Below, piece after piece: positions 7,234 to 56,920 of a stretch of 64,000 nucleotides of DNA. Both the position numbers and the translations under genes were made by a program. Numbering within the stretch: the first letter of the stretch is position 1; the number at the start of each line of letters is the position of its first letter. The notes beneath the pieces are model-generated. The model made no database searches and was not told the DNA's origin. It worked only from the letters and a program-made list of their open reading frames with translations. Location: contig OZ244974.1 in assembly GCA_965222955.1 (NCBI GenBank), forward strand, positions 1,344,226 to 1,408,225. The letters are read 5' to 3'. The stretch is from Hyphomicrobiales bacterium. GTDB taxonomy: Bacteria > Pseudomonadota > Alphaproteobacteria > Rhizobiales > CBDCVD01.

Positions 7234-7360
7234 TGTGTAATTTCAACAGGTTGTCCCTGGTAAATCTATCGGGTACGGGGGGCTCCCTGGGGGCAAGGGT
7301 GTTAAGAGGTATCACTTTCCGGTTTGCCTGTCCCGGGAACAAACTGCTGAAAGATCACAG
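7234..7360 (-). repeat. MITE-like family B copy
   Basis: Termini tgtgtaatttcaacaggttgtccctgg and cccgggaacaaactgctgaaagatcacag. Directly abuts A at 7361. Confidence 0.8.
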
Positions 7361-15301: not shown

Positions 15302-15316
15302 AGCGTCGGGCGATTA

Positions 15317-15420
15317 ATACCAGCGGTATTGGCGTTTTGTACGCGCTGACGTGTGTATCGTGCTGATAGGACAACGGTTTTAATCTGCATCAGGAGTCAA
15401 ACGCAAAGCCCCCTGGTATA
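15317..15420 (+). mobile_element. MITE family C copy (about 101 bp) with TAA target duplication
   Basis: taccagcggtattggcg...cccctggta flanked by taa on both sides. Begins 16 nt after the autotransporter stop. Confidence 0.85.
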
Positions 15421-15458
15421 AGTTGCAACAATAACCCCGGTTCCGGATAAGAGAAAGA

Positions 15459-15514
15459 CCAGAGCGTGTCAGGTCTTAACAGAATTGATTCTATTAAGAC
15501 CTGACACGCTCTGG
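15459..15514. mobile_element. Family A 'solo TIR pair' (both TIRs, no internal sequence)
   Basis: ccagagcgtgtcaggtcttaacagaattgattctattaagacctgacacgctctgg. Confidence 0.8.
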
Positions 15515-15651
15515 TGCGGCCCTTGCCGCAGATGGCCGGCAGCACCCGATGAATTTACCAGGGACAGCCTGTTTAAATTATACCAGTTTAATCTTTCAAC
15601 AGGTTGCTCTCAAGGTGGCAGGTCTGAAGTCAGGGTAGTTGCAGTCCTCTT
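15515..15651. repeat. Family B, permuted (right half followed by left half)
   Basis: cttgccgcagatggccggcagcacccgatgaatttaccagggacagcctgtttaaatta, then aatctttcaacaggttgctctcaaggtggcaggtctgaagtcagg. Confidence 0.65.
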
Positions 15652-19900: not shown

Positions 19901-20643
19901 ACGAGGACGGGCGCATCGGCGAGATTTTCATCGATATGCACAAGGAGGGGGCGGCGTTTCGCTCCCTGATGAACAACTTCGCCATTGCCGTCTCTTTGGG
20001 ACTGCAATATGGTGTACCTCTTGAGGAATATGTCGATGCCTTTACATTTACCCGGTTTGAGCCTGCGGGTCTTGTACAGGGCAATGAAACGATCAAGAAT
20101 GCGACGTCGATTCTTGACTATATTTTCCGCGAACTGGCTATTTCCTATCTCAGCCGCCATGATCTTGCCCATGTCGATCCGGGCGATATTGGTTCCATGA
20201 CAATAGGTGCTGGCGTGGCGCAGGACAAGCCGCGCACCAAGGGGGTGCCGACCGAGCGGCTTGTTTCAAAGGGGCTGACTCGCGGGCGCGTCGGGGAGAA
20301 AAATCTGATGGTGGTCGGCGGTGCATCGCGGGAAGCGAATCCGGCGCATCTTTTGCAGGCGCGCGCCCGCACCACCCTTGCCGGTACGGCTGCGGTGGTG
20401 AAGGCGGATCAGCCTGTTGGCGATGCCGGCATGCTTGTTGACGGCGATACCGCAGAGGATTCTGAAACGGATGTACCCTTGCGGGCCGATGCGGCGCCGG
20501 AGCCGGCGGACAAGCAGCGCGCCATTGCCCGTATGAAGGGCTATGAGGGAGAGGCTTGTACTGAGTGCGGGAATTTTACGATGGTGCGCAATGGCACCTG
20601 TCTGAAATGCGACACATGTGGCTCCACCAGCGGCTGCAGTTAG
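16912..20643 (+). CDS. nrdJ: Vitamin B12-dependent (class II) ribonucleotide reductase
   Basis: 1243 aa. Typical class II NrdJ sequence throughout, including [21 protein letters not shown] and a C-terminal Cys-rich tail ([28 protein letters not shown]). Confidence 0.95.
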
Positions 20644-20692
20644 TTGAATGTGAAAAAGTCCCCCGGCTTCGCCTCGGTCTGCTTTTCCCGCT
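20644..20692 (+). repeat. Family D/E element, D-end fragment, truncated by the C array
   Basis: ttgaatgtgaaaaagtcccccggcttcgcctcggtctgcttttcccgc begins directly after the nrdJ TAG. Confidence 0.75.
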
Positions 20693-20693
20693 A

Positions 20694-21356
20694 ATACCAG
20701 CGGTATTAGCGCTTTGTACGCGCTGACTTGTGTGTTGTGCTGACAAGACAACGGTTGTAAACCGGGTCAGGAGTCAAACGCAACGCCCCTGTATACCAGC
20801 GGTATTAGCGTTTTGTACGCGCTGACTTGTGTGTTGTGCTGACAAGACAACGGTTGTAAACCGGGTCAGGAGTCAAACGCAACGCCCCTGTATACCAGCG
20901 GTATTAGCGTTTTGTACGCGCTGACTTGTGTGTTGTGCTGACAAGACAACGGTTGTAAACCGGGTCAGGAGTCAAACGCAACGCCCCTGTATACCAGCGG
21001 TATTAGCGTTTTGTACGCGCTGACTTGTGTGTTGTGCTGACAAGACAACGGTTGTAAACCGGGTCAGGAGTCAAACGCAACGCCCCTGTATACCAGCGGT
21101 ATTAGCGTTTTGTACGCGCTGACTTGTGTGTTGTGCTGACAAGACAACGGTTGTAAACCGGGTCAGGAGTCAAACGCAATGCCCCTGTATACCAGCGGTA
21201 TTAGCGTTTTGTACGCGCTGACTTGTGTGTTGTGTTGACAAGACAACGGTTGTAAGCCGGGTCAGGAGTCAAACGCAACGCCCCTGTATACCAGCGGTAT
21301 TGGCTTTTTGTACGCGCTGACTTGTGTGTTGTGCTGACAAGACAACGGTTGTAAAC
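20694..21356 (+). repeat. Tandem array of family C units, exact 99-bp period, 6 full units plus a 69-bp partial
   Basis: ataccagcgg starts at 20694, 20793, 20892, 20991, 21090, 21189 and 21288. Junctions read cccctgtataccagcgg. Confidence 0.95.
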
Positions 21357-21359
21357 TAG

Positions 21360-21624
21360 CTGTAATCTTTCAGCAGGTTGTTCCCGGGACAGGCATACCG
21401 GTAGTGACACCTCTTGCGCCCTTGCCCCCAGGGAGGCCATACCGGGCCATTCATCTGATCATCGCTTTTTTTCGATTTCTCCTGCGCTGTCAAGGGTTTA
21501 AGAACCGCCAGAGGCGGCGCGAAGCGCCCTTGACAACGCAGGATAAATCGAACACCTCTAATGATCAGATGAATGGCCCCCTGCGCCCGAAGGGTTTACC
21601 AGGGACAACCTGTTGAAATTACAG
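21360..21624 (+). repeat. Family B copy carrying a nested F palindrome
   Basis: ctgtaatctttcagcaggttgttcccgggacagg ... ccagggacaacctgttgaaattaca, interrupted by F at 21447-21576. Confidence 0.8.
21447..21576. repeat. Family F cruciform palindrome (130 bp)
   Basis: ccattcatctgatcatcgc...gtcaagggtttaagaaccgccagaggcggcgcgaagcgcccttgac...aatgatcagatgaatgg, a long near-perfect inverted repeat. Confidence 0.85.
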
Positions 21625-21698
21625 CGCTGGTGGTTCGATTCCAGCATTTGCACTTTTCAACCACGGGCTTGCATGCAAATGTTAGAATCAGAGAACCA
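21625..21698. repeat. Family J palindrome with tRNA T-arm-like ends
   Basis: ggtggttcgattccagcatttgca...tgcaaatgttagaatcagagaaccac. Similar copies at 45691 and 35971. Confidence 0.55.
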
Positions 21699-21974
21699 CC
21701 AGAGCGTGTCAGGTCTTAATAGAAGCAATTCTGTTTCCCGATTGGCGAGGCGACCCACGCTTGAGCCGATCGACATGCGATGTGGGCGCATCTCATGAGA
21801 TCGGTTTGAGCGTGGGCGCCCGCCAATCGACAAACCCGAAGGAACGGGCGATTTTGCACCAATGCCGGCGCAAGGTTTCTTGAAAATAGTCCACTATGTC
21901 CTGCGAAACTTTGCCTGGCCTTGTCACAAAATCGCTCCGTCAGAATGATTCTATTAAGACCTGACACGCTCTAG
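21699..21974 (+). mobile_element. MITE family A, short form (276 bp), second internal subfamily
   Basis: TIRs ccagagcgtgtcaggtcttaatagaa / ttctattaagacctgacacgctctag. The interior differs from the 7361 copy (ccgatcgacatgcgatgtgggcgcatctcatgagatcgg). Confidence 0.85.
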
Positions 21975-22101
21975 CTGTAATCTTTCAGCAGGTTGTTCCG
22001 GGGACAGGCAGGTCTGAAGGAACACCTCTTGCGCCCTTGCCCCCAGGGATGGCCAGCAGCATCCGATGGGTTTTTCGAGAACACTCCGTTGACATTGCAC
22101 A
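21975..22101 (+). repeat. Family B copy (right arm degenerate)
   Basis: ctgtaatctttcagcaggttgttccggggacaggcaggtctgaagg ... ttcgagaacactccgttgacattgcaca. Abuts A at 21974/21975. Confidence 0.7.
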
Positions 22102-22118
22102 TCCAGGACGCGATCACA

Positions 22119-24242: not shown

Positions 24243-24300
24243 AGCGTATCAGGTCTTAATAGAAACAGAATTGCTTCTATTAAGACCTGACACGCTCCAA
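24239..24300. mobile_element. Family A solo TIR pair
   Basis: ctagagcgtatcaggtcttaatagaaacagaattgcttctattaagacctgacacgctccaa. Confidence 0.8.
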
Positions 24301-24524
24301 GTGAACCTCTTGCGGCCGTGGCCGCCAGGGCGGCCGGTTCGGGCCATTCATCTGATCATTGCTTTTTTTCGATTTATCCAGCGCTGTCAAGGGTTTAAGA
24401 ACCGCCAAAGGCGGCGCGAAGCGCCCTTGACAGTGCTGGATAAATCGAACATCTCTAATGATCAGATGGATGGCCACCTGTACCCGATGAGTTTACCAGG
24501 AACAACCTGCCGAGAGATCACAAC
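24301..24524 (+). repeat. Family B copy lacking its left arm, with nested F palindrome (24344..24473)
   Basis: gtgaacctcttgcggccgtggccgccaggg..[F]..ggccacctgtacccgatgagtttaccaggaacaacctgccgagagatcacaac. Confidence 0.75.
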
Positions 24525-24688
24525 TATAGCAAAATCGCCCGTCCCTTCGGGTTTGCCGATTGGCGGGCGCCCACGCTCAAACCGATCTCATGAGATGCGC
24601 CCACATCGCATGTCGATCGGCTCAAATGTGGGTCACCTCGCCAATCGAGAAACGAAAATTGCTTCTATTAAGACCTGACACGCTCTAA
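24525..24688 (-). mobile_element. Family A, truncated half-copy
   Basis: tatagcaaaatcgcccgtcccttcgggtttgccgattggcgg...cgagaaacgaaaattgcttctattaagacctgacacgctctaa. Ends 3 nt before the benE ATG. Confidence 0.75.
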
Positions 24689-29478: not shown

Positions 29479-29807
29479 CTAGAGCGTATCAGGTCTTAAC
29501 AGAATTGCTTCTATTAGAGCGTGTCAGGTCTTAATAGAATCAATTCTGTTTCCCGATTGGCGAGGCGGACCACGCCCAAGGCGATCGAAGAGCGATGTTT
29601 ATCCATCTCTCGAGAGCGGCTTGGGCGTGGACGTCCGCCAATCGGAAACCCGAAGGGACGGGCGCTTTTGCACCAATATGGGCCTTAAGTCTCTTGCAAA
29701 TAGCCCCACTATATCCTGCGAGACTTAAGGCCCATCTTGTCGCAAAATCGCTCCGTCAGAATGGTTCTATTAAAACCTGACACGCTCTAAGACCTGACAC
29801 GCTCTAT
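29479..29807 (+). mobile_element. Family A full copy (29515..29789) nested inside a family A solo TIR pair
   Basis: The outer right TIR ttctatta|agacctgacacgctcta is split. The inner copy gagcgtgtcagg...cctgacacgctc is flanked by ta on both sides. Confidence 0.85.
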
Positions 29808-29884
29808 CTGACCATTGCTTTTTTCCGGCGGCTCTCGCGGTGTGTCAAGGGTTTAAGAACCGCTGGAAGCGGCGCGAAGCGCCC
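29806..29884. repeat. Family F, left-half fragment
   Basis: atctgaccattgcttttttccgg...gtcaagggtttaagaaccgctggaagcggcgcgaagcgccc. Confidence 0.6.
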
Positions 29885-29897
29885 AAATAAGGAAATT

Positions 29898-30104
29898 ATA
29901 CCAGGGGGCTTTGCGTTTGACTCCTGGCTCAGATTAAAACCGCTGTCTTCTCAGCACGATACACAAGTCAGCGTGTACAAAACGCCAATACCGCTGGTAT
30001 TATACCAAGGGGCTTCGCGTTTGACTCCTGACCCGGTTTGAAACCGTTGTCTTATCAGCACGATACACAAGTCAGCGTGTACAAAACGCCAATACCGCTG
30101 GTAT
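29898..30104 (-). mobile_element. Two tandem full-length family C copies sharing TTA
   Basis: tta[taccaggggg...ccgctggta]tta[taccaagggg...ccgctggta]tta. Confidence 0.85.
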
Positions 30105-30249
30105 TACACGCAAGCGGAGCGCCAGGACGCGGGCGTTATCAGCCCAACGCGAAGCCGGATACACGATCGCACGCAGCCTTGCATCAAATTGGCGCTTGCC
30201 ATGGAAAGAAGGTCCATATACTTGACAGCGCATGATAAATAGAACACTT

Positions 30250-30604
30250 CTAGAGCGTGTCAGGTCTTAATAGAAGCAATTTTCGTTTCTCGATTGGCGA
30301 GGCGAACCACGCCCAAGGCGATCGAAGAGTGATGGCGACCCATCTCTCGAGAGCGGCTTGGGCGTGGGCGTCCGCCAATCGGCAAACCCGAAGGGACGGG
30401 CGCTTTTGCTATAGATTTCAGGGCGATCAGCTTTATGGCGTTAGCATTACCCCTGGCAAAACGGGTACAGCTAACGCCAAGCTGATCTGGTATGAACCTT
30501 AAGTCTCTTGCAAACAGCCCCACTATATCCTGCGAGACTTAAGGTTCATCTTGTCGCAAAATCGCTCCGTCAGAATGATTCTATTAAGACCTGACACGCT
30601 CTAA
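30250..30604 (+). mobile_element. MITE family A, long form (355 bp, with G)
   Basis: ctagagcgtgtcaggtcttaatagaagc ... gattctattaagacctgacacgctctaa. Confidence 0.85.
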
Positions 30605-30666
30605 TGATCAGATGAATGACCACCTGTATCCGACGGGTTTGTAAGAACACCCTGTTAAATGAACAC
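30603..30666. repeat. Fragment: F right tip plus B right half
   Basis: taatgatcagatgaatgaccacctgtatccgacgggtttgtaagaacaccctgttaaatgaaca. Confidence 0.55.
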
Positions 30667-34368: not shown

Positions 34369-34390
34369 ATTTGCCGTTTATCCGCCTGGT

Positions 34391-34535
34391 TGTAATTTCT
34401 CAGCAGGTTGTTCCCGGGGCAGGCAAATCTGACGTTACCCCTCTTGCGGTCCTTGCCGCGGATGGCGAGCCGCAAGGCCATACCGGGCCATTCACCTGAT
34501 GGGTTTTGCAGGGACAAGCTGTTGAAATTACACTG
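34391..34535 (+). repeat. Family B copy (retains an F-tip ccattca)
   Basis: tgtaatttctcagcaggttgttcccggggcagg ... gcagggacaagctgttgaaattacactg. 22 nt upstream of the accB start. Confidence 0.75.
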
Positions 34536-34591
34536 CTAGAGCCTTTCAGTTTTTAAGTGAAGCAATTCTGTTGAGACCTGACACGCTCCAG
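34536..34591. mobile_element. Family A solo TIR pair, left TIR degenerate
   Basis: ctagagcctttcagtttttaagtgaagcaattctgttgagacctgacacgctccag. Confidence 0.6.
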
Positions 34592-34596
34592 CCACG

Positions 34597-35352
34597 CTAA
34601 CACGCCGTCTTGCCGCACTGGCGCATGGCCTTGATTTTTTCTTCGATGACCCCGACATCGACAAGCCCCGGAATGACTTCATCGCCGATGACGTAACTCG
34701 GTGTGCCGTTGATGCCAAGAGAATTGGCGAGCGCGTAAACCTCGCGAAAGACGGTGTTGCTCTGCTCCACATCGATAGCGTCTTCGATGGCCCCGGGGTC
34801 CAGGCCGATCTGTTGGGCCGCCGCCAGAGCGGATTGCCTGTCGGCGCGCGCGTCATTGCCGAGCAGGGCGCGGTGAAATGCCCAGTATTTCGCGTTCTGT
34901 GCAATCGCCACCGATATCCGCGCCGCCTCAATGGATTCCGGACCCAGAATGGGAAATTCCTTTAAGACGATACGCAGGTTCGGATCCGATTGCAACAACG
35001 ACGCCGTGACCCCCAGTGCCTGTCGGCAAACGCCGCAATTATAGTCGAAAAACTCGACCAGCGTAACATCCCCATCAGGGTTGCCGATTACCGCCTGGTG
35101 CTCGGAGTTGAAAATCAGTTCCCTGTTGTCGCGCAGTGACGCGGACTGCCGGGCAAGCCTCTCTGTCTCCTCGATTTCGGCCAGGCGCTGTTGCATTCTT
35201 GACAGAATCTGCGGGTTCTCAACGAGGTATTTCTCTATTATGGCTTCGAGTTCCTCAACCTGTTCGGGTGAGAACTTCTCCGAGGCGCCGTAGGCGGGCG
35301 CCATGATAAACAGGCCGGCGCCAAATATCACAGCGGCGAACAGTCTCGTCAT
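34597..35352 (-). CDS. DsbA-family thiol:disulfide oxidoreductase (periplasmic)
   Basis: Signal peptide and a thioredoxin fold with the CxxC motif FFDYNCGVCRQ. Confidence 0.85.
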   Translation of the reverse strand: MTRLFAAVIFGAGLFIMAPAYGASEKFSPEQVEELEAIIEKYLVENPQILSRMQQRLAEIEETERLARQSASLRDNRELIFNSEHQAVIGNPDGDVTLVEFFDYNCGVCRQALGVTASLLQSDPNLRIVLKEFPILGPESIEAARISVAIAQNAKYWAFHRALLGNDARADRQSALAAAQQIGLDPGAIEDAIDVEQSNTVFREVYALANSLGINGTPSYVIGDEVIPGLVDVGVIEEKIKAMRQCGKTAC

Positions 35353-35364
35353 TGTAAATCTCCG

Positions 35365-35825
35365 TTAGAGCGTGTCAGGTCTTATACCAGCGGTATTGGC
35401 GCTTTGTACACGCTGATTTGTGTATAGTGTTGATAAGACAACGGTTTTAAGCCAAGTCAGGAGTCAAGCGCAAAGTCCCTTGGTATTAATAGAAGCAATT
35501 TTCGTTTCCCGATTGGCGAGGCGATACCCAGGTTCAAGACGGTCGAAGAGCAATGGCGAACCACCTCTCGAGAGCGGCCTGGGCGTGGGCGTCCGCCAAT
35601 CGGCAAACCCGAAGGGACGGACGCTTTTGCTATGGATTTCAGGGCGATCAGCTTTATGGCGTTAGCATTACCCTTGGCAAAACGGGTACAGCTAACGCCA
35701 GGCTGATTCAAGATGAACCTTAAGTCTCTTGCAAACAGCCCCACGATATCCTGCGAGACTTAAAGTTCATCTTGTCGCAAAATCGCTCCGTCAGAATGAT
35801 TCACTTAAGACCTGACACGCTCCAG
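35365..35825 (+). mobile_element. MITE family A long form with a family C copy (35385..35485) nested in its left TIR
   Basis: ttagagcgtgtcaggtcTTA[taccagcgg...cccttggta]TTAatagaagcaattttcg ... tcacttaagacctgacacgctccag. Confidence 0.85.
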
Positions 35826-35950
35826 GTGTAATCTTTCAACAGGGTGTTCCCGGGACGGGCAAATCTGACGTTACCCCTCTTGCGGTCCTTGCCGCAGATG
35901 GCGAGCAGCAAGGCCCCCTGCACCCGATGGGATTTTTGAGAGCAGCCTGT
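35826..35950 (+). repeat. Family B copy, right arm truncated
   Basis: gtgtaatctttcaacagggtgttcccgggacggg...cacccgatgggatttttgagagcagcctgtt. Confidence 0.75.
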
Positions 35951-35970
35951 TAAGACCCGACACGCTCCAG
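35951..35970. mobile_element. Lone family A TIR remnant
   Basis: aagacccgacacgctccag. Confidence 0.55.
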
Positions 35971-41177: not shown

Positions 41178-42357
41178 CTCACCACCCTCGCCACCTGACA
41201 TAATTTTCGAATTCCCATAGTTTTGGAATTGGTGTGATGTTTGCGATAGCTCTTGCGATGCGTCTGAAGCCCTTTTTGAACAGAGACATCAGGCAGCGAT
41301 AGGCTTTTTGGGGGCGTATTTTGCTTCGCCCCGATCCGGTTGCATCGCGGTTGAGACAGCAAAATAAAGCGCCATTGTCAGCGCCAGGATCAATCGCTCA
41401 ATACGATCTGCATGGGCCAGATGGGTCATTGTGATGCCGAAGCCGCGGGATTTGAAATCCGAGAACGAGGCTTCAATACCCCGGCGCATGCCATAATCGC
41501 GTGCCCGCGCTGTTGTTGGCTTGCCCTCCATGGCAATAATCCACGGCTCGCGGTGTCCCTGTTCGTGCAAAATACCGATAGACGTGCTGATGCCGGAACC
41601 ATAGAGCCCGGCCCCTTCAATGCCTTGCGGGGCAAAGCGCGCGACGTCTCCGGTTGTGATCTGCCCCCCTGCATGGTTCAGGGTCAAATTGCCCTTCAAG
41701 CGGATGCGATACCCCCATGCGGCCTTTTGGCACCAGCCGATTAAAACCGCCGTTCCATAGAACCGGTCAGCCGTCAACATGACATCACACCCTTCAGGCA
41801 CCATAACCCGCAGTGCGTCCAGAAGCGCTTTTTGCTCTGCAAAGCCGATATTGCCATGGGTCTGCATCACCCGCCAAACCAGCGGCAGCGCCCGCTCACC
41901 CAAGCGAAGCGACACCATCAGACACTCAAAACCATCGCCGATCTTGCTTTGGTTCAGCATCAATACCGCCGTCTTTTCATCACGGCAGGCCTTTCCAATC
42001 AGTTCGCCAACGAAACAGGCCATCACCCCCAAGGGCTCAATCATCGGGTTTTGCAGCCAACGATTGATCACCCGGTAGCGGCTGTCGTCATTCTTCACCG
42101 CGCGGGGGAAACCGCAGCAATTTCAGACGTGTTCACGCTGCGGCAGTGCAAAACAGACGCCGCAAGATCGGCAAGGCCCTTGATATGCGGCAGCTGTAAC
42201 CGTGTCTCACGCTCGCGCAAATCCCGCTCAATCGTGCCTGAAGGACGAGCAACCCCTCCACGAACCATTCGCTGCGTAAATCCATCCTCCATAAAACAAT
42301 GATCACAACAGGATAAACAGATGTCGTCAACAACATGTTATTCAGTCAGGTGGTGAG
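41178..42357 (-). mobile_element. Insertion sequence, IS4-superfamily-like (about 1.2 kb)
   Basis: Imperfect terminal IRs ctc(g/a)ccacctgac(a/t)(t/g)aa at 41187-41203 and 42341-42357. The left end carries a 9-nt duplication (ctcaccacc ctcgccacc). Boundaries approximate. Confidence 0.65.
41289..42292 (-). CDS. DDE transposase in two overlapping frames (42292..42095 and 42098..41289); probable frameshift
   Basis: The N-terminal piece (LADLAASVLHCRSVNTSEIAAVSPAR) continues logically into VKNDDSRYRVINRWLQN..., with LTADRFYG and the DDE_Tnp_1-like body in another frame. The junction is GTGA. Confidence 0.75.
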
Positions 42358-42367
42358 TTTGGCGATT

Positions 42368-43126
42368 TTATGCGGCAAGCATTTTAAAGATGCCATCAGA
42401 TGCTTGCTGCTCTACTACATGAGAGGCTTGGCTAAGAAGTGAGAGGTAGTCGCCGTATTTTTTAGGGGAGCAAATCACCGATGCGCGTATCGGAGCATCT
42501 TCTATCCGCGCCACGTCATGAAATTTTGTAAATGTAGCAAATACAGAATTGTGATTTTTGCTCACTGCTTCAAATAGGATTATCTTCGAATCTTGTTTGA
42601 CCATAGTATCAAAAACCCATTCGTGAGTTGATGCTCCCCGGAAAGAAAATTCACGAGCGATTTCTGCTGATTTGAATACACGGGAGATTTTCGCGTACAT
42701 ACGTTCGGATGTTTGGCGAACCTTATACTCTTCAACCTTGTAAAAAACTTGCGCAACAGACTCAAGTACACAATTCGCGACGGTTACGATAGCTCCGGCA
42801 AGTTGCGCTTCCGTCACATCGACAGTGAAGAAGCTGTGTTGATCAAAATTAATGCCAGCGTTCGCTGCGACAGTAGAGGCAATCCTGGAATAGTAATGCT
42901 GGCCGCTGATCATTTCCGCTTCATCATAGCCAAGCCCATGATCCGTCACATGGAAAGCTCCGCCAACAGCTTGGCTTACACGCACAACTACGCTTCCACC
43001 GTTAGGAAAGAGTAGCGGAGTTGAGATATAAGAAAAGCCGTTGAAATGCTCAGCGCGAGCAAGTTGTGCCGCTACATTATCAATCACAGCCTGGGTGCTT
43101 TCATATGAGATCATATTGTCTTTCAT
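42368..43126 (-). CDS. Hypothetical protein Y (about 252 aa); N-terminus vaguely DUF1828-like
   Basis: AT-richer than the flanks. TPLLFPNGGSVVVRVSQAVGGAFHVTDHGLGYDE recalls DUF1828, and FRGASTHEWVFDTMVKQDSKIILFEAVSK recalls DUF1829. Start uncertain (43180, 43126 or 43114). Confidence 0.55.
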   Translation of the reverse strand: MKDNMISYESTQAVIDNVAAQLARAEHFNGFSYISTPLLFPNGGSVVVRVSQAVGGAFHVTDHGLGYDEAEMISGQHYYSRIASTVAANAGINFDQHSFFTVDVTEAQLAGAIVTVANCVLESVAQVFYKVEEYKVRQTSERMYAKISRVFKSAEIAREFSFRGASTHEWVFDTMVKQDSKIILFEAVSKNHNSVFATFTKFHDVARIEDAPIRASVICSPKKYGDYLSLLSQASHVVEQQASDGIFKMLAA

Positions 43127-43625
43127 GACTCCAAGGCGGTTCTTGAACCAGCCAAATGTTAGGAATCCTGAACCTCTCACCTACAAACTCGAGAAATCCT
43201 TGGAAGTTGGGTGGATCCGGCTCTATAGGAAGAGCGATCGGTAACTTCTTGGATCTCCACTTACCTCCTAGCGCAAAATTCGTATGGAAATCGTGAAAAT
43301 GTGATCCAGTTTGCTCAATAAAGCGATATTCTTTCGGCCCTAATCCCTTATTGTTGTGGCTGGATATGGGTTTCCATTCAGCTTTTGCTATAACAACTCC
43401 CTTTGACACTGAAACCCTATTGTAGGTCAACAAAAAGGTTACATTGCGGTGCGGGGTTTCAAGTAGGGTTCTTCCATGAAAGGAAAAGCCTTCTTGAATC
43501 ACTCCTCCAACCTGCAGGGGGCTGGAAATTCGTAACGATCTACGATTATTATCGATCTGCCAGGTAAACCCATGGCTGGGAAATTCTTTTTCGGACAAGT
43601 AGAATTGCTGGTAGTTTACGGACAT
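43101..43625 (-). CDS. Hypothetical protein X (174 aa), no family recognised
   Basis: AT-richer ORF overlapping the downstream ORF Y by 14-80 nt depending on the Y start, so probably one operon. Confidence 0.55.
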   Translation of the reverse strand: MSVNYQQFYLSEKEFPSHGFTWQIDNNRRSLRISSPLQVGGVIQEGFSFHGRTLLETPHRNVTFLLTYNRVSVSKGVVIAKAEWKPISSHNNKGLGPKEYRFIEQTGSHFHDFHTNFALGGKWRSKKLPIALPIEPDPPNFQGFLEFVGERFRIPNIWLVQEPPWSHERQYDLI

Positions 43626-43732
43626 TCGAACAGGTTATCAACGTAAGTTTGCCAACGCGAGTCATATTTACCGAATCAACCGTAAAATATTCTAGAAATA
43701 TGCATAGCATCACGAGAATCCAAGCGTTATCG

Positions 43733-44071
43733 TCAAGCGAGATTGTAATATCTCGCCAGAATGCTCAAGGCTTCCTTCAAATCGCGCTTCGCATTTTGCC
43801 GCCTTTCACGTAACAACCCATGCGTTTTTGCACTTGGGTGATCGACAAGCCATCCACACACACTAAAACGCCACCTGGCTTAAGTGTGAACTCAGGTGCA
43901 GGTCTGCCATGCGATGTCGATGCATGACGTCCAGTTGACGCGCCGTGATCCCGTCCATATTGCGCGCTGGCACATCGGCGCGCACCTTTGCGTAATCGAT
44001 CGCTTTTTCCAAGCCTATGATGCTTCGCTCAAAATCGTTGGCGTAGCGCGTCCCCGCCGCATGTTGCGCCT
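43733..44071 (-). pseudogene. Decayed HTH (sigma region-4/LuxR-like) gene remnant with frameshifts
   Basis: Hand translation across three frames gives ...MDGITARQLDVMH.. / ..VLVCVDGLSITQVQKRMG.. / ..RERRQNAKRDLKEALSILARYYNLA*. The 5' end is cut by a D copy. Confidence 0.35.
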
Positions 44072-44141
44072 GATTGACTTGTCTTTATTTTATTGGAAAA
44101 AAGTGGACCAAGGCGAAGCCGAGAGGCTTTTTCAGATTCAA
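44072..44141 (-). repeat. Family D/E, D-end copy
   Basis: gattgacttgtctttattttattggaaaaaagtggaccaaggcgaagccgagaggctttttcagattcaac. Confidence 0.7.
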
Positions 44142-44421
44142 CTAGAGCGTATCAGGTTTTAATAGAACCATTCTGACGGAGCGATTTTGCGACAAGATAG
44201 GCCTTAAAGTCTCGCAGAGTATAGCGGGGCTATTTACAAGGGACTTAAGGTCCATATTGGTGCAAAAGCGCCCGTCCCTTCGGGTTTGTCGATTGGCGGG
44301 CGCCCACGCTCAAACCGATCTCATGAGATGCGCCCACACCGCATGTCGATCGGCTCAAACGTGGGTCACCTCGCCAATCGGGAAACGAAAATTGCTTCTG
44401 TTAAGACCTGACACGCTCTAG
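44142..44421 (-). mobile_element. MITE family A, short form (280 bp)
   Basis: ctagagcgtatcaggttttaatagaaccattctgacgg ... gcttctgttaagacctgacacgctctag. Confidence 0.85.
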
Positions 44422-44452
44422 CAACCGCTGGAAGCGGCGCGAAGCCCCCCCC

Positions 44453-44532
44453 CTTGAGCGGTGTTTTCTCACTGTTTCAAATGAAGAAAAGTGCGCTGAG
44501 CGTAGCGAAGCACCATTCTTCACAATCAACTA
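44453..44532 (+). repeat. Family D/E, E-end fragment
   Basis: cttgagcggtgttttctcactgtttcaaatgaagaaaagtgcgctgagcgtagcgaagcaccattcttcacaatcaact. Confidence 0.65.
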
Positions 44533-45328: not shown

Positions 45329-45370
45329 TGCATCATTTCCTTAAAACGGATACGTCCTGTCTGATCGGCT

Positions 45371-45473
45371 ATACCAGCGGTATTGGCTTTCTGTACACGC
45401 TGACTTGTGTATCGTGCTGATAAGACAGCGGTTTTAAACCAAGCCAGGAGCCACACGCTAAGCCCTCTGGTAT
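45371..45473 (+). mobile_element. MITE family C copy (flanks cta / tta)
   Basis: cta[taccagcggtattggctttctgtac...agccctctggta]tta, 42 nt upstream of the lexA start. Confidence 0.8.
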
Positions 45474-45500
45474 TAGACACCTGAACGTTGAGGGCCTGGT

Positions 45501-45690
45501 TGTGACGTTTCAGCAGGTTGTTCCAAAACAGGCAAACCTGAAGGTGCACCTCTTGCGGCCATTGCCGCCGATTGCCGCGGCAAGGCCATACCGAACCATT
45601 CATCTGACCATCGCTTTTTTCGATCCATCCATCGCTTTCAAAAGTTCAGGAACCGCTGGAAGCGGCGCGAAACGTCCTTGACAGCACTCA
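45501..45690 (+). repeat. Family B left half fused to family F left half
   Basis: tgtgacgtttcagcaggttgttccaaaacagg...ccataccgaaccattcatctgaccatcgc...aaccgctggaagcggcgcgaaacgtccttgac. Confidence 0.65.
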
Positions 45691-45805: not shown

Positions 45806-46227
45806 ATTAAATTTGGCATATGAGAACGCGCCCGAATGTCAAATGCGTTCTGCTAGCGGTTGTCACATGCTCCTGGTTCTTGACAGGTCTATTGCTGTAT
45901 TCTTTCGTATACGCACATGTTCAGCCCTCTCTTTTACTCCTCATTTAACGCTCCCCTGTAACTCCCTCTTTCCGAACAGCTTATCCGATTCAACCGGCCG
46001 TTAACCGCCAGCCTGCCGTCTAGGTGTCCGGCACGAAAAGAATCGCGCCTTGCACAAAACACGAACATCGTATCTGTTCTGGTTGTGTTCTGCAAGGAAA
46101 AACTGCAAACTGTTTGACATCGTCCGATACCGGTGCAAGAAACGCTGGGTTCCGAAAAACCTGTTTGATGGGATCGCATGCTATCTTCCAGTCGCTTACC
46201 CGCGCAGGCGAACGTTCTATCGGTGTT

Positions 46228-46874: not shown

Positions 46875-46951
46875 CGGGGTATAGCTCAGCCTGGTAGAGC
46901 ACTGGTTTTGGGAACCAGGGGTCGCATGTTCGAATCCTGCTGCCCCGACCA
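46875..46951 (+). tRNA. tRNA-Pro (anticodon UGG)
   Basis: Cloverleaf folded by hand: acceptor cggggta/tgccccg, D-arm gctc/gagc, anticodon stem ctggt/accag with loop ttTGGga, T-loop ttcgaat (one T-stem mismatch), encoded CCA. Confidence 0.85.
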
Positions 46952-47011: not shown

Positions 47012-47127
47012 TGCGCAATTTTAGTGGAGGTGTGTTCTCAAGAAAAGCCATCGGGTGGGATTGAACGGCCCGGCACGAACTTGCTGCACCATGGGTTTAC
47101 CAGGGACAACCTTTTGAAATTACACAG
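47012..47127 (+). repeat. Family B copy (short)
   Basis: tgcgcaattttagtggaggtgtgttctcaag ... ccagggacaaccttttgaaattacacag. Abuts A at 47128. Confidence 0.65.
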
Positions 47128-47404
47128 CTAGAGCGTGTCAGGTCTTAATAGAATCAATTCTGTTTCCCGATTGGCGAGGCGAACCACGCCCAAGGCGATC
47201 GAAGAGCGATGGCGACCCATCTCTCGAGAGCGGCCTGGGCGTGGGCGTCCGCCAATCGGAAACCCGAAGGGACGGGCGCTTTTGCACCAACATGAACCTT
47301 AAGTTTCTTGAAAATAGCGCCACTATATCGTGCGAGACTTAAGGTTCATCTTGTCGCAAAATCGCTCCGTCAGAATGCTTCTATTAAGACCTGACACGCT
47401 CTAG
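47128..47404 (+). mobile_element. MITE family A, short form (277 bp)
   Basis: ctagagcgtgtcaggtcttaatagaatc ... gcttctattaagacctgacacgctctag. Inverted relative to the copy at 47890. Confidence 0.9.
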
Positions 47405-47474
47405 GGACTGATTTGTCCTTATTTTATTGGGAAAAATAGACCGAGGCGAAGCCGAGGGACTTTTTCCATTCAAC
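47405..47474 (-). repeat. Family D/E, D-end copy facing the NDUFS4-like gene
   Basis: ggactgatttgtccttattttattgggaaaaatagaccgaggcgaagccgagggactttttccattcaac. Confidence 0.8.
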
Positions 47475-47498
47475 AAAATCAGACGCAGGAAAGGTGCA

Positions 47499-47813
47499 AT
47501 GACGGCTCGCATTTATCGTCCGGCAAAGACCGCCATGCAATCCGGGCGGCGCAAGAGTTCGCGCTGGCTTTTGGAGTATGAGCGGCAGACACCCATGCAT
47601 GTTGATCCACTGATGGGATGGCAGGGCTCGTCGGATATCTCGGGTCAGGTTCGCTTGACGTTTTCCTCGCGCGCTGCTGCTGAAGAGTATGCCAGGCGTC
47701 ACAATCTGGATTATACGCTCATTGATACGCCGCCGGGTGAAGGTCGCAGCCGGCGCGGCGTATCATATGCGGATAACTTTCGCCACGATCGCAAGATCCC
47801 GTGGACACATTGA
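47499..47813 (+). CDS. ETC complex I subunit conserved-region (NDUFS4-like) protein
   Basis: 104 aa. MTARIYRPAKTAMQSGRRKSSRWLLEYE...DPLMGWQGSSD...LTFSSRAAAEEYARRHNLDY. Start trimmed to ATG 47499. Confidence 0.85.
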   Translation: MTARIYRPAKTAMQSGRRKSSRWLLEYERQTPMHVDPLMGWQGSSDISGQVRLTFSSRAAAEEYARRHNLDYTLIDTPPGEGRSRRGVSYADNFRHDRKIPWTH

Positions 47814-47816
47814 TGA

Positions 47817-47889
47817 GTTGAATGTAAAAAAGTCCGTCGGCTTCGCCTCGGTCTGCTTTTTCCCGATGAACACAAGAACAAATCAGTCC
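47817..47889 (+). repeat. Family D/E, D-end of a full element that continues at 48245 after the A insertion
   Basis: gttgaatgtaaaaaagtccgtcggcttcgcctcggtctgctttttcccgatgaacacaagaacaaatcagtcc. Starts 3 nt after the stop codon. Confidence 0.8.
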
Positions 47890-48244
47890 CTAGAGCGTGT
47901 CAGGTCTTAATAGAACCATTCTGACGGAGCGATTTTACTATAGATTTCAGGGCGATCAGCTTTATGCGTTTCGCATTACCCTTGGCAAAATGGGTACAGC
48001 TAACGCCAAGCTGATCTAATATGAACCTTAAGTCTCGCAGGATATAGTGGGGCTATTTTCAAGAGACTTAAGGTCCATATTGGTGCAAAAGCGCCCGTCC
48101 CTTCGGGTTCCCGATTGGCGGACGCCCACGCCCAAGCCGCTCTTGAGAGATGGGTCGCCATCGCTCTTCGATCGCTTTGAGCCTGGGTATCGCCTCGCCA
48201 ATCGAGAAACAGAATTGCTTCTATTAAGACCTGACACGCTCCAG
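47890..48244 (-). mobile_element. MITE family A, long form (355 bp, with G), inserted in the D/E element
   Basis: ctagagcgtgtcaggtcttaatagaaccattctgacgg ... gcttctattaagacctgacacgctccag. Confidence 0.9.
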
Positions 48245-48864: not shown

Positions 48865-49015
48865 GTTGAATGCGAAAAAGTCCCTTGGTTTGGCCTCGGT
48901 CTACTTTTTCCCAATAAAATAAGGACAAATCAGTCCCTGGGGCGTTCCGGCGGACTGATTTGGCATTCATATTGACCGATCATGATCAATGGCCATGATC
49001 GGAAATTGCAAGGCT
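48865..49015 (+). repeat. Family D/E element, D-end plus H part (left portion of the copy inserted in the transposase gene)
   Basis: gttgaatgcgaaaaagtcccttggtttggcctcggtctactttttcccaataaaataaggacaaatcagtccctgg ggcgttccggcggactgattt...ccgatcatgatcaatggccatgatcgg. Confidence 0.8.
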
Positions 49016-49519
49016 ATACCAGCGGTATTGGCGTTTTGTACGCGCTGACTTGTGTGTCGTGCTGATAAGACAACGGTTGTAAACCAGTTCAGGAGTCAAA
49101 CGTAAGTCCCTTGTATACCAGCGGTATTGGCGTTTTGTACGCGCTGACTTGTGTGTCGTGCTGATAAGACAACGGTTGTAAACCAGTTCAGGAGTCAAAC
49201 GTAAGTCCCTTGTATACCAGCGGTATTGGCGTTTTGTACGCGCTGACTTGTGTGTCGTGCTGATAAGACAACGGTTGTAAACCAGTTCAGGAGTCAAACG
49301 TAAGTCCCTTGTATACCAGCGGTATTGGCGTTTTGTACGCGCTGACTTGTGTGTCGTGCTGATAAGACAACGGTAGTAAACCAGTTCAGGAGTCAAACGC
49401 AAAGCCTCTTGGTATTATACCAGCGGTATTGGCGTTTTGTACACTCTGACTTGTGTGTCGTGCTGATAAGACAATGGTTGTAAATCAGGTCAGGAGTCAA
49501 ACGCAAAGCCCCTTGGTAT
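49016..49519 (+). repeat. Tandem array of 5 family C units (three 99-bp junctions, one full-length junction with TTA)
   Basis: ataccagcgg starts at 49016, 49115, 49214, 49313 and 49417. The array sits inside the D/E element. Confidence 0.95.
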
Positions 49520-56318: not shown

Positions 56319-56387
56319 AATAGTCCATTGATTGCGAAAGCCTGATCGAAACAGAGCACGTGCATACGGGACGTGACATGCTCTAAC

Positions 56388-56504
56388 TGTGATCTTTCAG
56401 CAGGTTGTTCCCGGGACAGGCAGGTCCGAAGGTACATCTCTTGCGCCCTTGCCGCCAGCAGCACCCGATGGGTTTATCAGGGATAACCTGTTCAAAGACT
56501 ACAT
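56388..56504 (+). repeat. Family B copy, preceded by a 15-nt A-TIR remnant (56373-56387)
   Basis: gtgacatgctctaac | tgtgatctttcagcaggttgttcccgggacagg...cagggataacctgttcaaagactacat. Confidence 0.8.
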
Positions 56505-56778
56505 CTAGAGCGTGTCAGGTCTTAATAGAATCAATTCTGTTTCTCGATTGGCGAGGTGACCCACGTTTGAGCCGATCGACATGCGATGCGGGCGCATCTC
56601 ATGAGATCGGTTTGAGCGTGGGCACCCGCCAATCCGAAACCCGAAGGGACGGGCGATTTTGCACCAATGCCGGCGCAAAGTCTCTTGAAAATAGTCCACT
56701 ATGTCCTGCGAAACTTTGCTTGGCCTTGTCACAAAATCGCTCCGTCAGAATGGTTCTATTAAGACCTGACACGCTCTA
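56505..56778 (+). mobile_element. MITE family A, short form (274 bp)
   Basis: ctagagcgtgtcaggtcttaatagaatc ... ggttctattaagacctgacacgctctaa. Confidence 0.9.
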
Positions 56779-56920
56779 ACAGATGATGACAAAACCTGCC
56801 ATTCACCAGTAGATGACACGCTCTATATCAATATTCACTTAAAATACAATCGTTTGCGGGCCACGGGGCAAGGGGTGTACGATCTTGCGCCAGGGCGTCC
56901 CAACGGCCGGCGGCGGTGGA

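What the first reader, a model, noticed from the sequence alone, without database searches (positions are those of the whole stretch)
42368..43625. AT-richer two-gene cassette of unknown function next to an IS, between rne and lexA: candidate accessory (defence or toxin-antitoxin-like) module
Two overlapping minus-strand ORFs, X (174 aa, 43625..43101) and Y (about 252 aa, 43126..42368), lie in a segment that is clearly AT-richer than its surroundings. Three sampled 60-nt lines gave about 32-45% GC, against about 65% in a lexA line. The cassette is flanked by an IS4-like IS on one side (41178-42357). On the other side lie a decayed HTH gene and a stack of MITEs. I recognise no family for X. Y has only a vague resemblance to DUF1828/DUF1829-type proteins (TPLLFPNGGSVVVRV...FHVTDHG; EWVFDT...ILFEAVSK, possibly nuclease-like). 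Small, compositionally foreign, IS-linked operons of unknown proteins are the typical signature of phage-defence or addiction modules. This is the best candidate in the window for a genuinely undescribed protein system, but the functional reading is only inference.
Basis: inference. Interest (0 to 1): 0.7.

Follow-up and report, generated by a model that had tools for sequence, protein, structure and literature searches.

The report
Divergent two-gene candidate phage-defence module
Two overlapping, horizontally acquired genes between rne and lexA are real, always travel together, and are a very divergent relative of a catalogued but never tested candidate anti-phage system (PADLOC PDC-M24); they pair a small histidine-rich protein of unmatched fold with a nuclease-fold protein.

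Summary
X (43101-43625, minus strand, 174 aa) and Y (42368-43126, minus strand, 252 aa) overlap in a 45% GC patch of a 57% GC window. An IS4-family IS, a decayed HTH gene and MITE copies flank them. Both genes are real and under purifying selection. They occur in strict X-then-Y order in 19 independent, mostly alphaproteobacterial loci and co-diverge (Mantel r=0.89). The pair is always AT-richer than its flanks. It sits in unrelated contexts, including behind a type I R-M operon, beside a RES-Xre toxin-antitoxin pair, and in a prophage immunity region next to the CI-like repressor.

Y weakly but consistently matches PADLOC PDC-M24B. It has a DUF1828-like N-domain and a PD-(D/E)xK-fold C-domain resembling Can2, Card1 and Bax1. 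X itself matches no library. Its model is confident (pLDDT 94) but has no PDB counterpart, and it carries a near-invariant H/N/H-x-H/N cluster. Divergent X relatives weakly hit PDC-M24A and Pfam DUF6978.

Best reading: a divergent branch of the untested PDC-M24 candidate defence system. The defence function and the mechanism remain inferences. It is not "undescribed", but it is uncharacterised. Interest is moderate.

The parts
43101..43625 (-). Gene X (174 aa): small soluble single-domain protein and A component of the pair
   Evidence: ORF. Homologues: 4, then 46, then 546 clusters. AF2 pLDDT 93.9 and pTM 0.89. No PDB fold match (best E=0.16, TM<=0.23). One BFVD match, to an uncharacterised siphovirus protein (TM 0.55/0.61).
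43278..43376 (-). X residues 84-116: conserved core W84-x-P86-x3-H90-x-N92 ... [S/T]108-H109-x-H111-x-F113-x2-N116, a putative metal or catalytic site
   Evidence: Across 134 diverse homologues: H111 134/134, H90 133, N116 133, N92 132, W84 132, H109 125. In the model, H109-x-H111 lies on a beta-strand, H90 forms a beta-bridge and N116 is on the following helix. The weak DUF6978 and PDC-M24A matches of the divergent member P0194 cover this segment.
42368..43126 (-). Gene Y (252 aa, or 248 aa from the alternative start at 43114): B component of the pair
   Evidence: ORF. 11 homologues at 38-59% identity. PADLOC PDC-M24B at E=1.1e-6 over residues 20-206. 12 of 17 family members hit the same model. 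AF2 pLDDT 89.0 and pTM 0.71.
42812..43069 (-). Y residues about 20-105: DUF1828-like alpha/beta N-terminal domain (four-stranded meander, two helices, one strand)
   Evidence: Pfam DUF1828, sub-threshold: E=0.058, 14.1 bits against a cut-off of 22, residues 36-121. Secondary structure. D62 and G64 are universal and E69 and D95 near-universal across the family.
42677..42811 (-). Y residues 106-150: long connecting helix
   Evidence: AF2 secondary structure, helix 106-150.
42371..42676 (-). Y residues 151-252: C-terminal domain with a restriction-endonuclease-like (PD-(D/E)xK) fold
   Evidence: Foldseek against the PDB: Can2 8q43_A at E=4e-4 (probability 1.0), plus Card1, Cdn1, VC1899, Bax1, R2 endonuclease, MGME1 and MspJI. 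D173, E186 and K190 are all present in the window's clade. Only [E/D]186, W170, V188, K201 and D204 are universal.
43101..43126 (-). X/Y overlap (26 nt, or 14 nt if Y starts at 43114), with GGAG just upstream of the 43126 ATG; suggests translational coupling
   Evidence: Sequence. Homologous pairs overlap by 1-25 nt or are separated by at most 12 nt in every locus.
43626..43740 (-). Leader and presumed promoter region of the operon; no confident signal found
   Evidence: The promoter scan gave only chance-level hits and no terminators. There is no GTTC-N7-GTTC SOS box here and no Rfam match.
42358..43800 (.). Low-GC (41-48%) foreign patch that carries the operon
   Evidence: The same GC deficit of 5-14 points is seen for the pair in 11 of 11 other loci.
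41178..42357 (-). Context, not part of the module: IS4-family IS inserted 10 nt downstream of the Y stop codon, with its transposase split into two ORFs
   Evidence: Terminal repeats read.

Best explanation
X and Y form a horizontally mobile, translationally coupled two-protein module. It is a very divergent, mostly alphaproteobacterial branch of the PADLOC candidate system PDC-M24, whose A component resembles DUF6978 and whose B component resembles DUF1828.

X is a small soluble protein with a fold that has no counterpart among solved structures. It is built around a near-invariant His/Asn cluster: H90, N92, H109-x-H111 and N116. I read this as a mononuclear metal or catalytic centre of the 'HxH on a strand plus a third His' type.

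Y has a DUF1828-like N-domain, a 45-residue helix and a C-domain with the PD-(D/E)xK fold. This layout resembles the sensor-plus-nuclease effectors Can2 and Card1.

The mechanism I think most likely is this. The two proteins form a complex that stays inert in uninfected cells. On phage infection (or another invading-DNA cue) it attacks nucleic acid. Y's nuclease-fold domain binds or cleaves DNA, at least in the window's clade, where D173, E186 and K190 are intact. X supplies the conserved metal-dependent chemistry or the trigger.

Shown here: gene reality, purifying selection, obligate pairing, co-evolution, horizontal mobility, the folds, the conserved sites, and the links to R-M, TA and prophage-immunity contexts.

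Inferred: complex formation, metal binding, nuclease activity and the anti-phage phenotype.
For: Gene reality and pairing:
- Both proteins have homologues, and the family alignments are well conserved.
- pN is 0.22-0.32 against a saturated pS of 0.76-0.83 in both genes.
- X-then-Y adjacency holds in 19 independent loci; the only exceptions are an IS disruption and contig ends.
- X and Y co-diverge (Mantel r=0.89, p=2e-4).

Mobility:
- The pair is 5-14 GC points below its flanks in 11 of 11 loci.
- Every genome holds it in a different context.
- An IS, a resolvase or a prophage lies next to it in several loci.

Defence-type associations:
- hsdR-hsdM-hsdS followed by X and Y on one strand, with a 73-nt gap (L023).
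- A RES-Xre TA pair next door (L020).
- A position in a prophage immunity region, downstream of the S24 CI-like repressor on the same strand, where lambda carries rexAB (L019; the lambda comparison is from my own knowledge).
- ThsB_TIR 6 kb away in the IS-rich locus L016.

Family links:
- Y matches PDC-M24B at E=1.1e-6, and 12 of 17 relatives do too.
- Seven X-family members hit three PDC-M24A models and eight hit DUF6978. No other family is hit by more than one member.
- P0194's matches cover the His/Asn core.
- PDC-M24 was nominated because it is embedded in BREX, DISARM or type I R-M loci.

Structure:
- Y's C-domain has the PD-(D/E)xK fold.
- X's model is confident but has no PDB match.
- X's His/Asn cluster is near-invariant.
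Against: - No experiment exists for PDC-M24 or for either DUF family.
- The window's own X matches no PADLOC or Pfam model even at E<=1. The A-component link is transitive and weak (17-23 bits, below Pfam's 29.6-bit cut-off).
- Most copies are solitary among housekeeping genes, not in defence islands.
- Y's canonical catalytic residues D173 and K190 are lost in about a third of the sampled family, and the E-x3-K spacing is non-canonical. Nuclease activity may therefore not be the conserved function.
- No copy was found in two phage collections.
- I could not inspect model coordinates, so the geometry of X's proposed metal site is inferred only from secondary structure and conservation.
Confidence: 0.55

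Rival explanations
1. A toxin-antitoxin-type addiction module. One protein is a toxic enzyme (X's metal site or Y's nuclease domain) and the other neutralises it. The function is to stabilise the mobile DNA that carries it, not to defend against phage.
For: Two small overlapping co-transcribed genes that are mobile and AT-rich. They co-evolve tightly. They sit beside another TA pair in L020, and beside an IS or a resolvase elsewhere. When an IS destroyed Y in L016, X was truncated as well (151 aa), which is compatible with loss of both partners.
Against: Neither protein matches any toxin or antitoxin family in Pfam, NCBIfam or PADLOC. Neither partner has an HTH, RHH or AbrB DNA-binding domain. 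Both are larger than typical type II TA proteins. Both carry strongly conserved candidate active or ligand sites. This category also overlaps heavily with abortive-infection defence, so it is not cleanly separable from the best explanation.
Confidence: 0.2
2. A non-defence accessory function of mobile elements or prophages, such as a DNA-processing, repair or recombination helper, or a lysogeny-associated regulator. Here the nuclease-fold protein and its metalloprotein partner act on the element's own DNA or on host DNA.
For: In the L019 prophage the pair lies between the repressor and the ERF/NinB recombination module. Y's structural neighbours include the repair and processing nucleases Bax1 and MGME1 and the R2 endonuclease. 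Many copies are solitary, with no defence neighbours.
Against: Most copies are not in recognisable prophages or elements at all; they are bare two-gene insertions. The pair is absent from 50,697 phage genomes and from IMG/VR at the sensitivity available. The co-oriented attachment to a type I R-M operon and the PDC-M24 embedding origin point to defence.
Confidence: 0.17
3. The two ORFs are chance or decaying ORFs, or an ordinary housekeeping operon.
For: The patch is surrounded by decay: a pseudogenised HTH, a split transposase and MITEs. No promoter or terminator was detected.
Against: Homologues reach E=1e-67 and 1e-90. The families are conserved, with invariant motifs. pN is far below pS. 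Both models are confident (pLDDT 94 and 89). The distribution is patchy, with a different locus in every genome, and the GC is foreign.
Confidence: 0.02

Closest known systems
PADLOC phage-defence candidate PDC-M24 (cassette FAM_00129>>FAM_00065; Payne, Hughes, Fineran & Jackson, bioRxiv 10.1101/2024.01.29.577857)
   Same: A two-gene A-then-B cassette on one strand. Y matches the M24B model collinearly (residues 20-206 against profile positions 13-204 of 256; E=1.1e-6), and 12 of 17 relatives match it too. The protein sizes are similar (M24A profiles of 146 positions and the M24B profile of 256, against 174 and 252 aa). Divergent X relatives hit three M24A models. One copy (L023) is attached to a type I R-M operon, which is the kind of context that nominated PDC-M24.
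   Different: The window's X does not match M24A at all (E>1). The best X-family match is 17 bits and covers only the His/Asn core. Most copies are not embedded in R-M, BREX or DISARM loci. The branch is essentially alphaproteobacterial. PDC-M24 itself is untested, so the match transfers a hypothesis and not a function.
Pfam DUF6978 (PF22398)
   Same: A small single-domain protein. 8 of 134 X-family members match it (best E=1.2e-4), over profile positions 63-110 of 133, which is the His/Asn core. [quoted passage not shown]
   Different: All matches fall below the gathering threshold (22.8 against 29.6 bits). X itself and 126 of 134 relatives give no match. X is about 40 residues longer than the profile. 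No function is known for DUF6978.
Pfam DUF1828 (PF08861), commonly found with DUF1829
   Same: Y residues 36-121 align to essentially the whole DUF1828 profile (positions 1-89 of 91). The domain is N-terminal, as in DUF1828/DUF1829 proteins (the DUF1829 co-occurrence is from my own knowledge of Pfam).
   Different: The match is sub-threshold (14.1 against 22 bits), and only 2 of 17 relatives show it. No DUF1829 match was found at E<=1. DUF1829 has been implicated in defence only once, in DS-6B/HipAD, which has a different architecture of DUF3037+DUF1829 paired with a HipA kinase (PMC13092281).
Can2, Card1 and Cdn1: CARF-plus-PD-(D/E)xK effector nucleases of type III CRISPR systems (PDB 8q43, 6xl1, 9u49), and VC1899 (1xmx)
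   Same: These are the best structural matches to Y (E=4e-4 to 7e-3, probability 0.93-1.0). They share the overall logic of an N-terminal regulatory domain followed by a C-terminal restriction-endonuclease-fold domain.
   Different: TM-scores are only 0.30-0.38 and identity is 8-15%. Y's N-domain is a beta-meander, not a Rossmann-like CARF domain. There is no sequence similarity to any PDB chain. No CRISPR or cyclase gene is nearby. Y's catalytic triad has non-canonical spacing and is not conserved across the family.
Lambda RexAB: a prophage-encoded two-gene exclusion system co-transcribed with cI
   Same: The likeness is positional only. In the Pseudochrobactrum prophage (L019) the pair follows the S24 CI-like repressor on the same strand, between the immunity and recombination modules.
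   Different: There is no sequence or fold relationship. RexB is a membrane protein, and neither X nor Y is predicted to be one. Most X-Y copies are not in prophages. The RexAB comparison rests on my own knowledge and was not tested.

Membership tests
PADLOC PDC-M24 (candidate two-gene defence system) | The B protein matches the PDC-M24B HMM | tested here: met
   Y: E=1.1e-6, 26.4 bits, residues 20-206 against profile positions 13-204 of 256. 12 of 17 family members match at E<=0.01, and no other PADLOC family recurs. PADLOC's own per-model thresholds were not available, so whether PADLOC would call it is unknown.
PADLOC PDC-M24 (candidate two-gene defence system) | The A protein matches a PDC-M24A HMM | tested here: inconclusive
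   The window's X gives no match at E<=1. Among 134 relatives, 5, 1 and 1 members hit three M24A models (best E=0.0013, 17.1 bits, over the His/Asn core). Every other family is hit by at most one member.
PADLOC PDC-M24 (candidate two-gene defence system) | A-then-B order, adjacent, on the same strand | tested here: met
   19 independent loci, with overlaps or gaps of at most 12 nt.
PADLOC PDC-M24 (candidate two-gene defence system) | Embedded in or attached to BREX, DISARM or type I R-M loci (the basis of its nomination) | tested here: inconclusive
   Not so in the window, where the pair lies between an IS and MITEs, with rne and lexA beyond them. It is so in L023 (hsdR-hsdM-hsdS followed by X and Y). 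Most other loci are solitary.
PADLOC PDC-M24 (candidate two-gene defence system) | Anti-phage activity | not testable with these tools
   The source paper lists PDC-M24 among '145 untested phage defence candidates'.
Pfam DUF6978 (PF22398) | Score at or above the gathering threshold (29.6 bits) | tested here: not met
   X gives no match. The best relative, P0194, scores 22.8 bits. 8 of 134 relatives are sub-threshold. Remote homology is plausible; formal membership is not shown.
Pfam DUF1828 (PF08861) | Score at or above the gathering threshold (22 bits) | tested here: not met
   Y scores 14.1 bits at E=0.058, though the match covers the full profile (positions 1-89 of 91). Only 2 of 17 relatives match.
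PD-(D/E)xK nuclease superfamily | Restriction-endonuclease-like alpha-beta-beta-beta-alpha-beta core fold | tested here: met
   The top Foldseek hits for Y are all PD-(D/E)xK proteins: Can2, Card1, Cdn1, VC1899, Bax1, R2 RLE, MGME1, MspJI and OkrAI, with probabilities up to 1.0 and E=4e-4. The model's pLDDT is 89. TM-scores are modest (0.2-0.38).
PD-(D/E)xK nuclease superfamily | Conserved catalytic D ... (D/E)-x-K signature | tested here: inconclusive
   The window's clade has D173, E186 and K190, but with E-x3-K spacing. D173 and K190 are each present in only 12 of the 19 full-length sequences. [E/D]186, K201 and D204 are universal. The residue geometry could not be examined because no coordinates were available.
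Type II toxin-antitoxin systems | A recognisable toxin fold or family and a DNA-binding antitoxin | tested here: not met
   No Pfam, NCBIfam or PADLOC toxin or antitoxin family matches either protein. Neither model contains an HTH or RHH domain.
CARF/SAVED-nuclease effectors (Can2/Card1 type) | An N-terminal CARF (Rossmann-like) cyclic-oligonucleotide sensor domain and an associated signal synthase | tested here: not met
   Y's N-domain is an antiparallel meander followed by two helices. No CARF Pfam match was found. No cyclase or CRISPR genes appear in any neighbourhood.
His-Me finger / HNH nucleases (considered for X) | A beta-beta-alpha-metal motif with the catalytic His at the end of strand 1 and a metal-binding Asn or His on the helix | tested here: inconclusive
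   X has a beta(101-105), beta(109-111), alpha(113-117) element with N116 on the helix. But its conserved histidines sit on strand 2 and at residue 90, outside the hairpin. No HNH Pfam match was found and no structural match to any nuclease.

The most novel reading that the evidence does not exclude
X-Y, and by extension PDC-M24, is a functional anti-phage system with a mechanism unlike any characterised one. In this reading X is a metalloenzyme with a fold absent from the PDB. It either generates or destroys a small molecule or nucleic-acid signal, or is itself the effector. It works in obligate partnership with a DUF1828-sensor/PD-(D/E)xK-fold protein whose canonical nuclease site is dispensable in a third of the sampled family.
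Probability: 0.3. Interest if true: 0.7.

Novelty: new variant of a known kind. Interest (0 to 1): 0.5.

Why it matters
PDC-M24 is one of 145 computationally nominated defence candidates that have never been tested. This analysis shows three things.

1. The candidate has a deep, previously unrecognised alphaproteobacterial branch. X has 546 clusters at 50% identity, and X itself matches no model in the four libraries searched (Pfam, NCBIfam, PADLOC, PHROGs).
2. The two genes are an obligate, co-evolving, horizontally mobile unit.
3. Independent contexts (a type I R-M operon, a TA neighbour, a prophage immunity region) repeat the defence association.

The analysis also gives concrete, testable sites: X H90, N92, H109, H111 and N116; Y D62, D173, E186, K190, K201 and D204. 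It flags X as a confidently predicted fold with no solved counterpart.

If the pair does defend, it would add a new enzyme chemistry to bacterial immunity. It would also show that such systems commonly live as solitary mini-islands, outside defence islands.

Tried and rejected
1. HMM profiles of X and Y against all PDB sequences gave only chance hits.
2. INPHARED phage genomes searched by tblastn with X, Y and the bridge protein P0194 gave no match. P0194 against plasmids also gave none.
3. IMG/VR viral contigs searched with the Y alignment and with the prophage-borne Y gave no relatives.
The genome scan with A2 gave only 5 loci and the metagenome scan only 4 short contigs, so no large-scale neighbourhood statistic was possible.
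5. Synonymous versus non-synonymous counts among L005-L010 were uninformative because the contigs are nearly identical (0 synonymous, 2 non-synonymous). I replaced this with diverged pairs.
6. SOS regulation, suggested by lexA lying just upstream: there is no GTTC-N7-GTTC box before X. I reject any functional link to lexA as coincidence.
7. A conserved third gene: the 119-aa ORF upstream of the pair in L001 has no counterpart upstream of X in the window or in eight other loci. The decayed HTH in the window is therefore not part of the module.
8. The promoter/terminator scan and Rfam showed nothing above chance.
9. Exact look-ups of P0001 and P0019 failed, so the source assembly was not identified.
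10. An HNH (His-Me) reading of X: considered, but the positions of the conserved histidines do not fit the canonical motif, and there is no sequence or fold match.
11. A CARF reading of Y's N-domain: rejected on secondary structure.
12. PHROGs gave only weak hits to families of unknown function.
Full report
**1. Observation**

X runs 43625..43101 and is 174 aa. Y runs 43126..42368 and is 252 aa. Y's ORF extends upstream to a GTG at 43180, and the public database protein P0005 starts at M5 (248 aa). X and Y overlap by 26 nt, or 14 nt with the M5 start, and a GGAG lies just before the 43126 ATG.

The pair is 45.0% GC. The window as a whole is 57.1%, the rne side is 60.0% and the lexA side is 52.1%. 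300-nt windows fall to 41-48% over 42300-43800. GC3 is 0.44 for X and 0.41 for Y, against 0.61 for lexA and 0.70 for rne.

- rne and lexA are confirmed by NCBIfam.
- The IS at 41178-42357 belongs to the IS4 family and has a split transposase. Its CTCACCACC termini are visible. It begins 10 nt after Y's stop codon.
- Upstream of X lies a three-frame wreck of an HTH gene.
- Beyond that, 44195-44531 consists of copies of short dispersed elements that saturate the window.

**2. Are they genes, and a pair?**

X has 4 close homologues (51-66% identity) and Y has 11 (38-59%) among 5.8 billion clusters. A profile search raises the X family to 46 clusters. An exhaustive HMM search of 1.84 billion representatives gives 546 clusters at E<=1e-3 and 141 at E<=1e-30. 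Nearly all are single-domain proteins of 160-185 aa.

Every locus with enough sequence has X immediately followed by Y on the same strand. The genes overlap by 1-25 nt or are separated by at most 12 nt. This holds in 19 independent loci. The exceptions are L016, where an IS truncates X and replaces Y, and contig ends.

- Pairwise identities of X and of Y across ten loci are strongly correlated (Mantel r=0.89, permutation p=2e-4).
- In diverged pairs, synonymous sites are saturated (pS 0.76-0.83) while pN is 0.22-0.32 in both genes.

Both are therefore real, selected, co-inherited genes. No third gene is conserved with them.

**3. Mobility and context**

The pair is 5-14 GC points below its flanks in 11 of 11 loci. 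Named sources are Alphaproteobacteria: Lentilitoribacter, Hyphomicrobium, Paracoccus, Rhodobacter, Roseovarius, Roseiarcus, Roseospira and Pseudochrobactrum. The insertion site differs in every genome.

Solitary insertions among housekeeping genes:
- next to the L21/L27 ribosomal protein genes, with a resolvase adjacent (L001)
- between an ornithine-cyclodeaminase-family gene (Pfam OCD_Mu_crystall) and a PTP phosphatase/dnaX (L005)
- inside a his operon (L017)
- beside crtC (L018)
- near dnaK or typA-like genes

Three contexts stand out:
- In L023 the pair follows hsdR-hsdM-hsdS on the same strand after a 73-nt gap.
- In L020 it abuts a RES-Xre TA pair.
- On the Pseudochrobactrum megaplasmid a 24-27% identical copy lies in a prophage immunity region. 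It is downstream of the S24 CI-like repressor on the same strand, with a Cro-like HTH on the other side and ERF/NinB/integrase beyond. Lambda carries rexAB in that slot (my own knowledge).

L016 is IS-rich and has a ThsB_TIR gene 6 kb away. The pair was not found in INPHARED phage genomes or in IMG/VR at the available sensitivity.

**4. Protein Y**

- Pfam gives only a sub-threshold DUF1828 hit that spans the whole profile (E=0.058, 14.1 against 22 bits).
- PADLOC gives PDC-M24B at E=1.1e-6, collinear over residues 20-206. 12 of 17 family members hit the same model and no other family recurs.
- The AF2 model (pLDDT 89, pTM 0.71) has three parts. An N-terminal beta-meander is followed by two helices (residues 20-105). 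A 45-residue helix follows (106-150). The C-terminal part is an alpha/beta domain (151-252).
- The top Foldseek matches against the PDB are PD-(D/E)xK proteins that carry additional domains: Can2 (E=4e-4, probability 1.0), Card1, Cdn1, VC1899 and Bax1. R2 endonuclease, MGME1, MspJI and OkrAI follow. TM-scores are modest (0.2-0.38). No sequence-level PDB relative exists.

The window's clade has D173, E186 and K190, but with E-x3-K spacing. Across the wider family D173 and K190 are each present in only 12 of the 19 full-length sequences. D62, W170, [E/D]186, V188, K201 and D204 are universal. The nuclease fold is well supported. Catalytic competence is not established.

**5. Protein X**

X matches no Pfam, NCBIfam, PADLOC or PHROG model. 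The AF2 model is very confident (pLDDT 93.9, pTM 0.89). It has no meaningful PDB match (best E=0.16, TM<=0.23). Its only BFVD match is to an uncharacterised siphovirus protein (E=4e-4, TM 0.55/0.61).

Across 134 diverse relatives at 22-41% identity, the following are conserved: H111 in 134 of 134, H90 in 133, N116 in 133, N92 in 132, W84 in 132, W22 in 132, K13 in 132, R81 in 131 (K in the window) and H109 in 125. In the model, H109-x-H111 is on a beta-strand, H90 forms a beta-bridge and N116 is on the next helix.

I interpret this as a mononuclear His-rich metal or catalytic centre. A canonical His-Me/HNH reading does not fit the positions of the histidines.

**6. Link of X to known families**

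Among the 134 relatives, 5, 1 and 1 members hit three PDC-M24A models (best E=0.0013), and 8 hit Pfam DUF6978 (best E=1.2e-4). No other family is hit by more than one member. For P0194, the member most distant from X, both matches cover residues about 70-135, which is the His/Asn core. Both are below threshold (22.8 against 29.6 bits for DUF6978; 17.1 bits for M24A).

Y independently matches M24B, and the gene order is A then B. The correspondence is therefore unlikely to be chance. X-Y is best seen as a deep, divergent branch of PDC-M24.

**7. What is known about PDC-M24**

It is one of 145 untested 'guilt-by-embedding' candidates, nominated because its genes are embedded in BREX, DISARM or type I R-M loci. 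Its cassette is FAM_00129>>FAM_00065, with a tabulated count of 153. The B family also pairs with another upstream family, FAM_01408, with a count of 15. No paper in the library names PDC-M24.

[quoted passage not shown] DUF1829 has been implicated once, in HipAD/DS-6B.

**8. Mechanism**

Best explanation (confidence 0.55): a two-protein anti-phage or anti-mobile-element module. Y is a sensor-plus-nuclease-fold protein and X a metal-dependent enzyme or trigger. They act as a complex. The shown and inferred steps are listed under Best explanation.

Rivals:
- a pure TA addiction module (0.20)
- a non-defence function of mobile elements or prophages (0.17)
- spurious or housekeeping ORFs (0.02, effectively refuted)

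**9. Novelty and verdict**

The system is not undescribed, because its family is already in PADLOC as an untested candidate. It is also mostly not in defence islands.

I class it as a new variant of a known (candidate) kind. Interest is moderate at 0.5:
- It is a good experimental target with an unmatched fold and precise mutational handles.
- It is one of many untested two-gene candidates.
- It does not by itself open a long-standing question.

Noticed in passing
window 20594-21487 and 48916-49512: Two related tandem arrays of a 99-nt unit (about 7 and about 4 shifted copies, up to 100% identical within an array), 27.7 kb apart. It was not determined whether they are coding repeats or non-coding arrays.
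   Followed up: no
window 12537-13799: A tandem array of four 321-nt units at 98-99% identity. The unit length is a multiple of 3, so this may be a repeat-domain protein.
   Followed up: no
window-wide, e.g. 7314-7638, 15298-15587, 21305-22104, 24246-24688, 29481-30622, 34388-35965, 44195-44531, 45352-45560, 47081-48244, 56332-56797: The window is saturated with several families of short dispersed repeats (50-300 nt, 5-18 copies each). Many share the palindromic core AGAGCGTGTCAGGTCTTAA...TTAAGACCTGACACGCTCT, which is MITE-like.
   Followed up: partly
window 41178-42357: An IS4-family IS whose transposase is split into a 65-aa ORF and a 269-aa ORF, so it is probably inactivated. It is inserted 10 nt after Y's stop codon. 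No obvious target-site duplication was seen.
   Followed up: partly
window 43740-44160 (minus strand): A pseudogenised HTH gene. LuxR- or sigma70-region-4-like peptide pieces are spread over three frames with internal stops. It is not conserved upstream of the pair in other loci.
   Followed up: partly
window 46076-46090 and 46875-46951: An alphaproteobacterial SOS-box-like GTTC-N7-GTTC lies about 750 nt upstream of the lexA start. Two such matches in the window are at chance level. A tRNA-Pro(TGG) gene lies at 46875-46951.
   Followed up: no
L017:7212-12570: The X-Y pair, a GGDEF gene and three small ORFs sit between two His_biosynth-family genes (hisA/hisF-like) of a his operon. This is an accessory insertion inside a biosynthetic operon.
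   Followed up: no
L016:1-16456: An IS-dense region holds six DDE transposase genes, two Y1 transposase genes and an rve-family integrase. Here the X homologue is truncated to 151 aa and followed directly by an IS instead of Y. A ThsB_TIR (Thoeris-like) gene lies 6 kb downstream.
   Followed up: no
L013:3688-4173 and L015:9588-10624: In these two MAG loci the X ORF is shorter than its tblastn match (139 aa and 114 aa ORFs), and in L015 Y is 227 aa. These may be frameshifted or decaying copies, or assembly errors.
   Followed up: no
L019 (NZ_CP084393.1 185350-209931): The 464-kb Pseudochrobactrum plasmid carries an apparently complete lambdoid-type prophage with portal, terminase, DnaB-like helicase, Cro/CI, ERF, NinB, HNH and integrase genes. 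PGAP annotates the divergent X-Y pair in its immunity region only as 'hypothetical protein'.
   Followed up: partly
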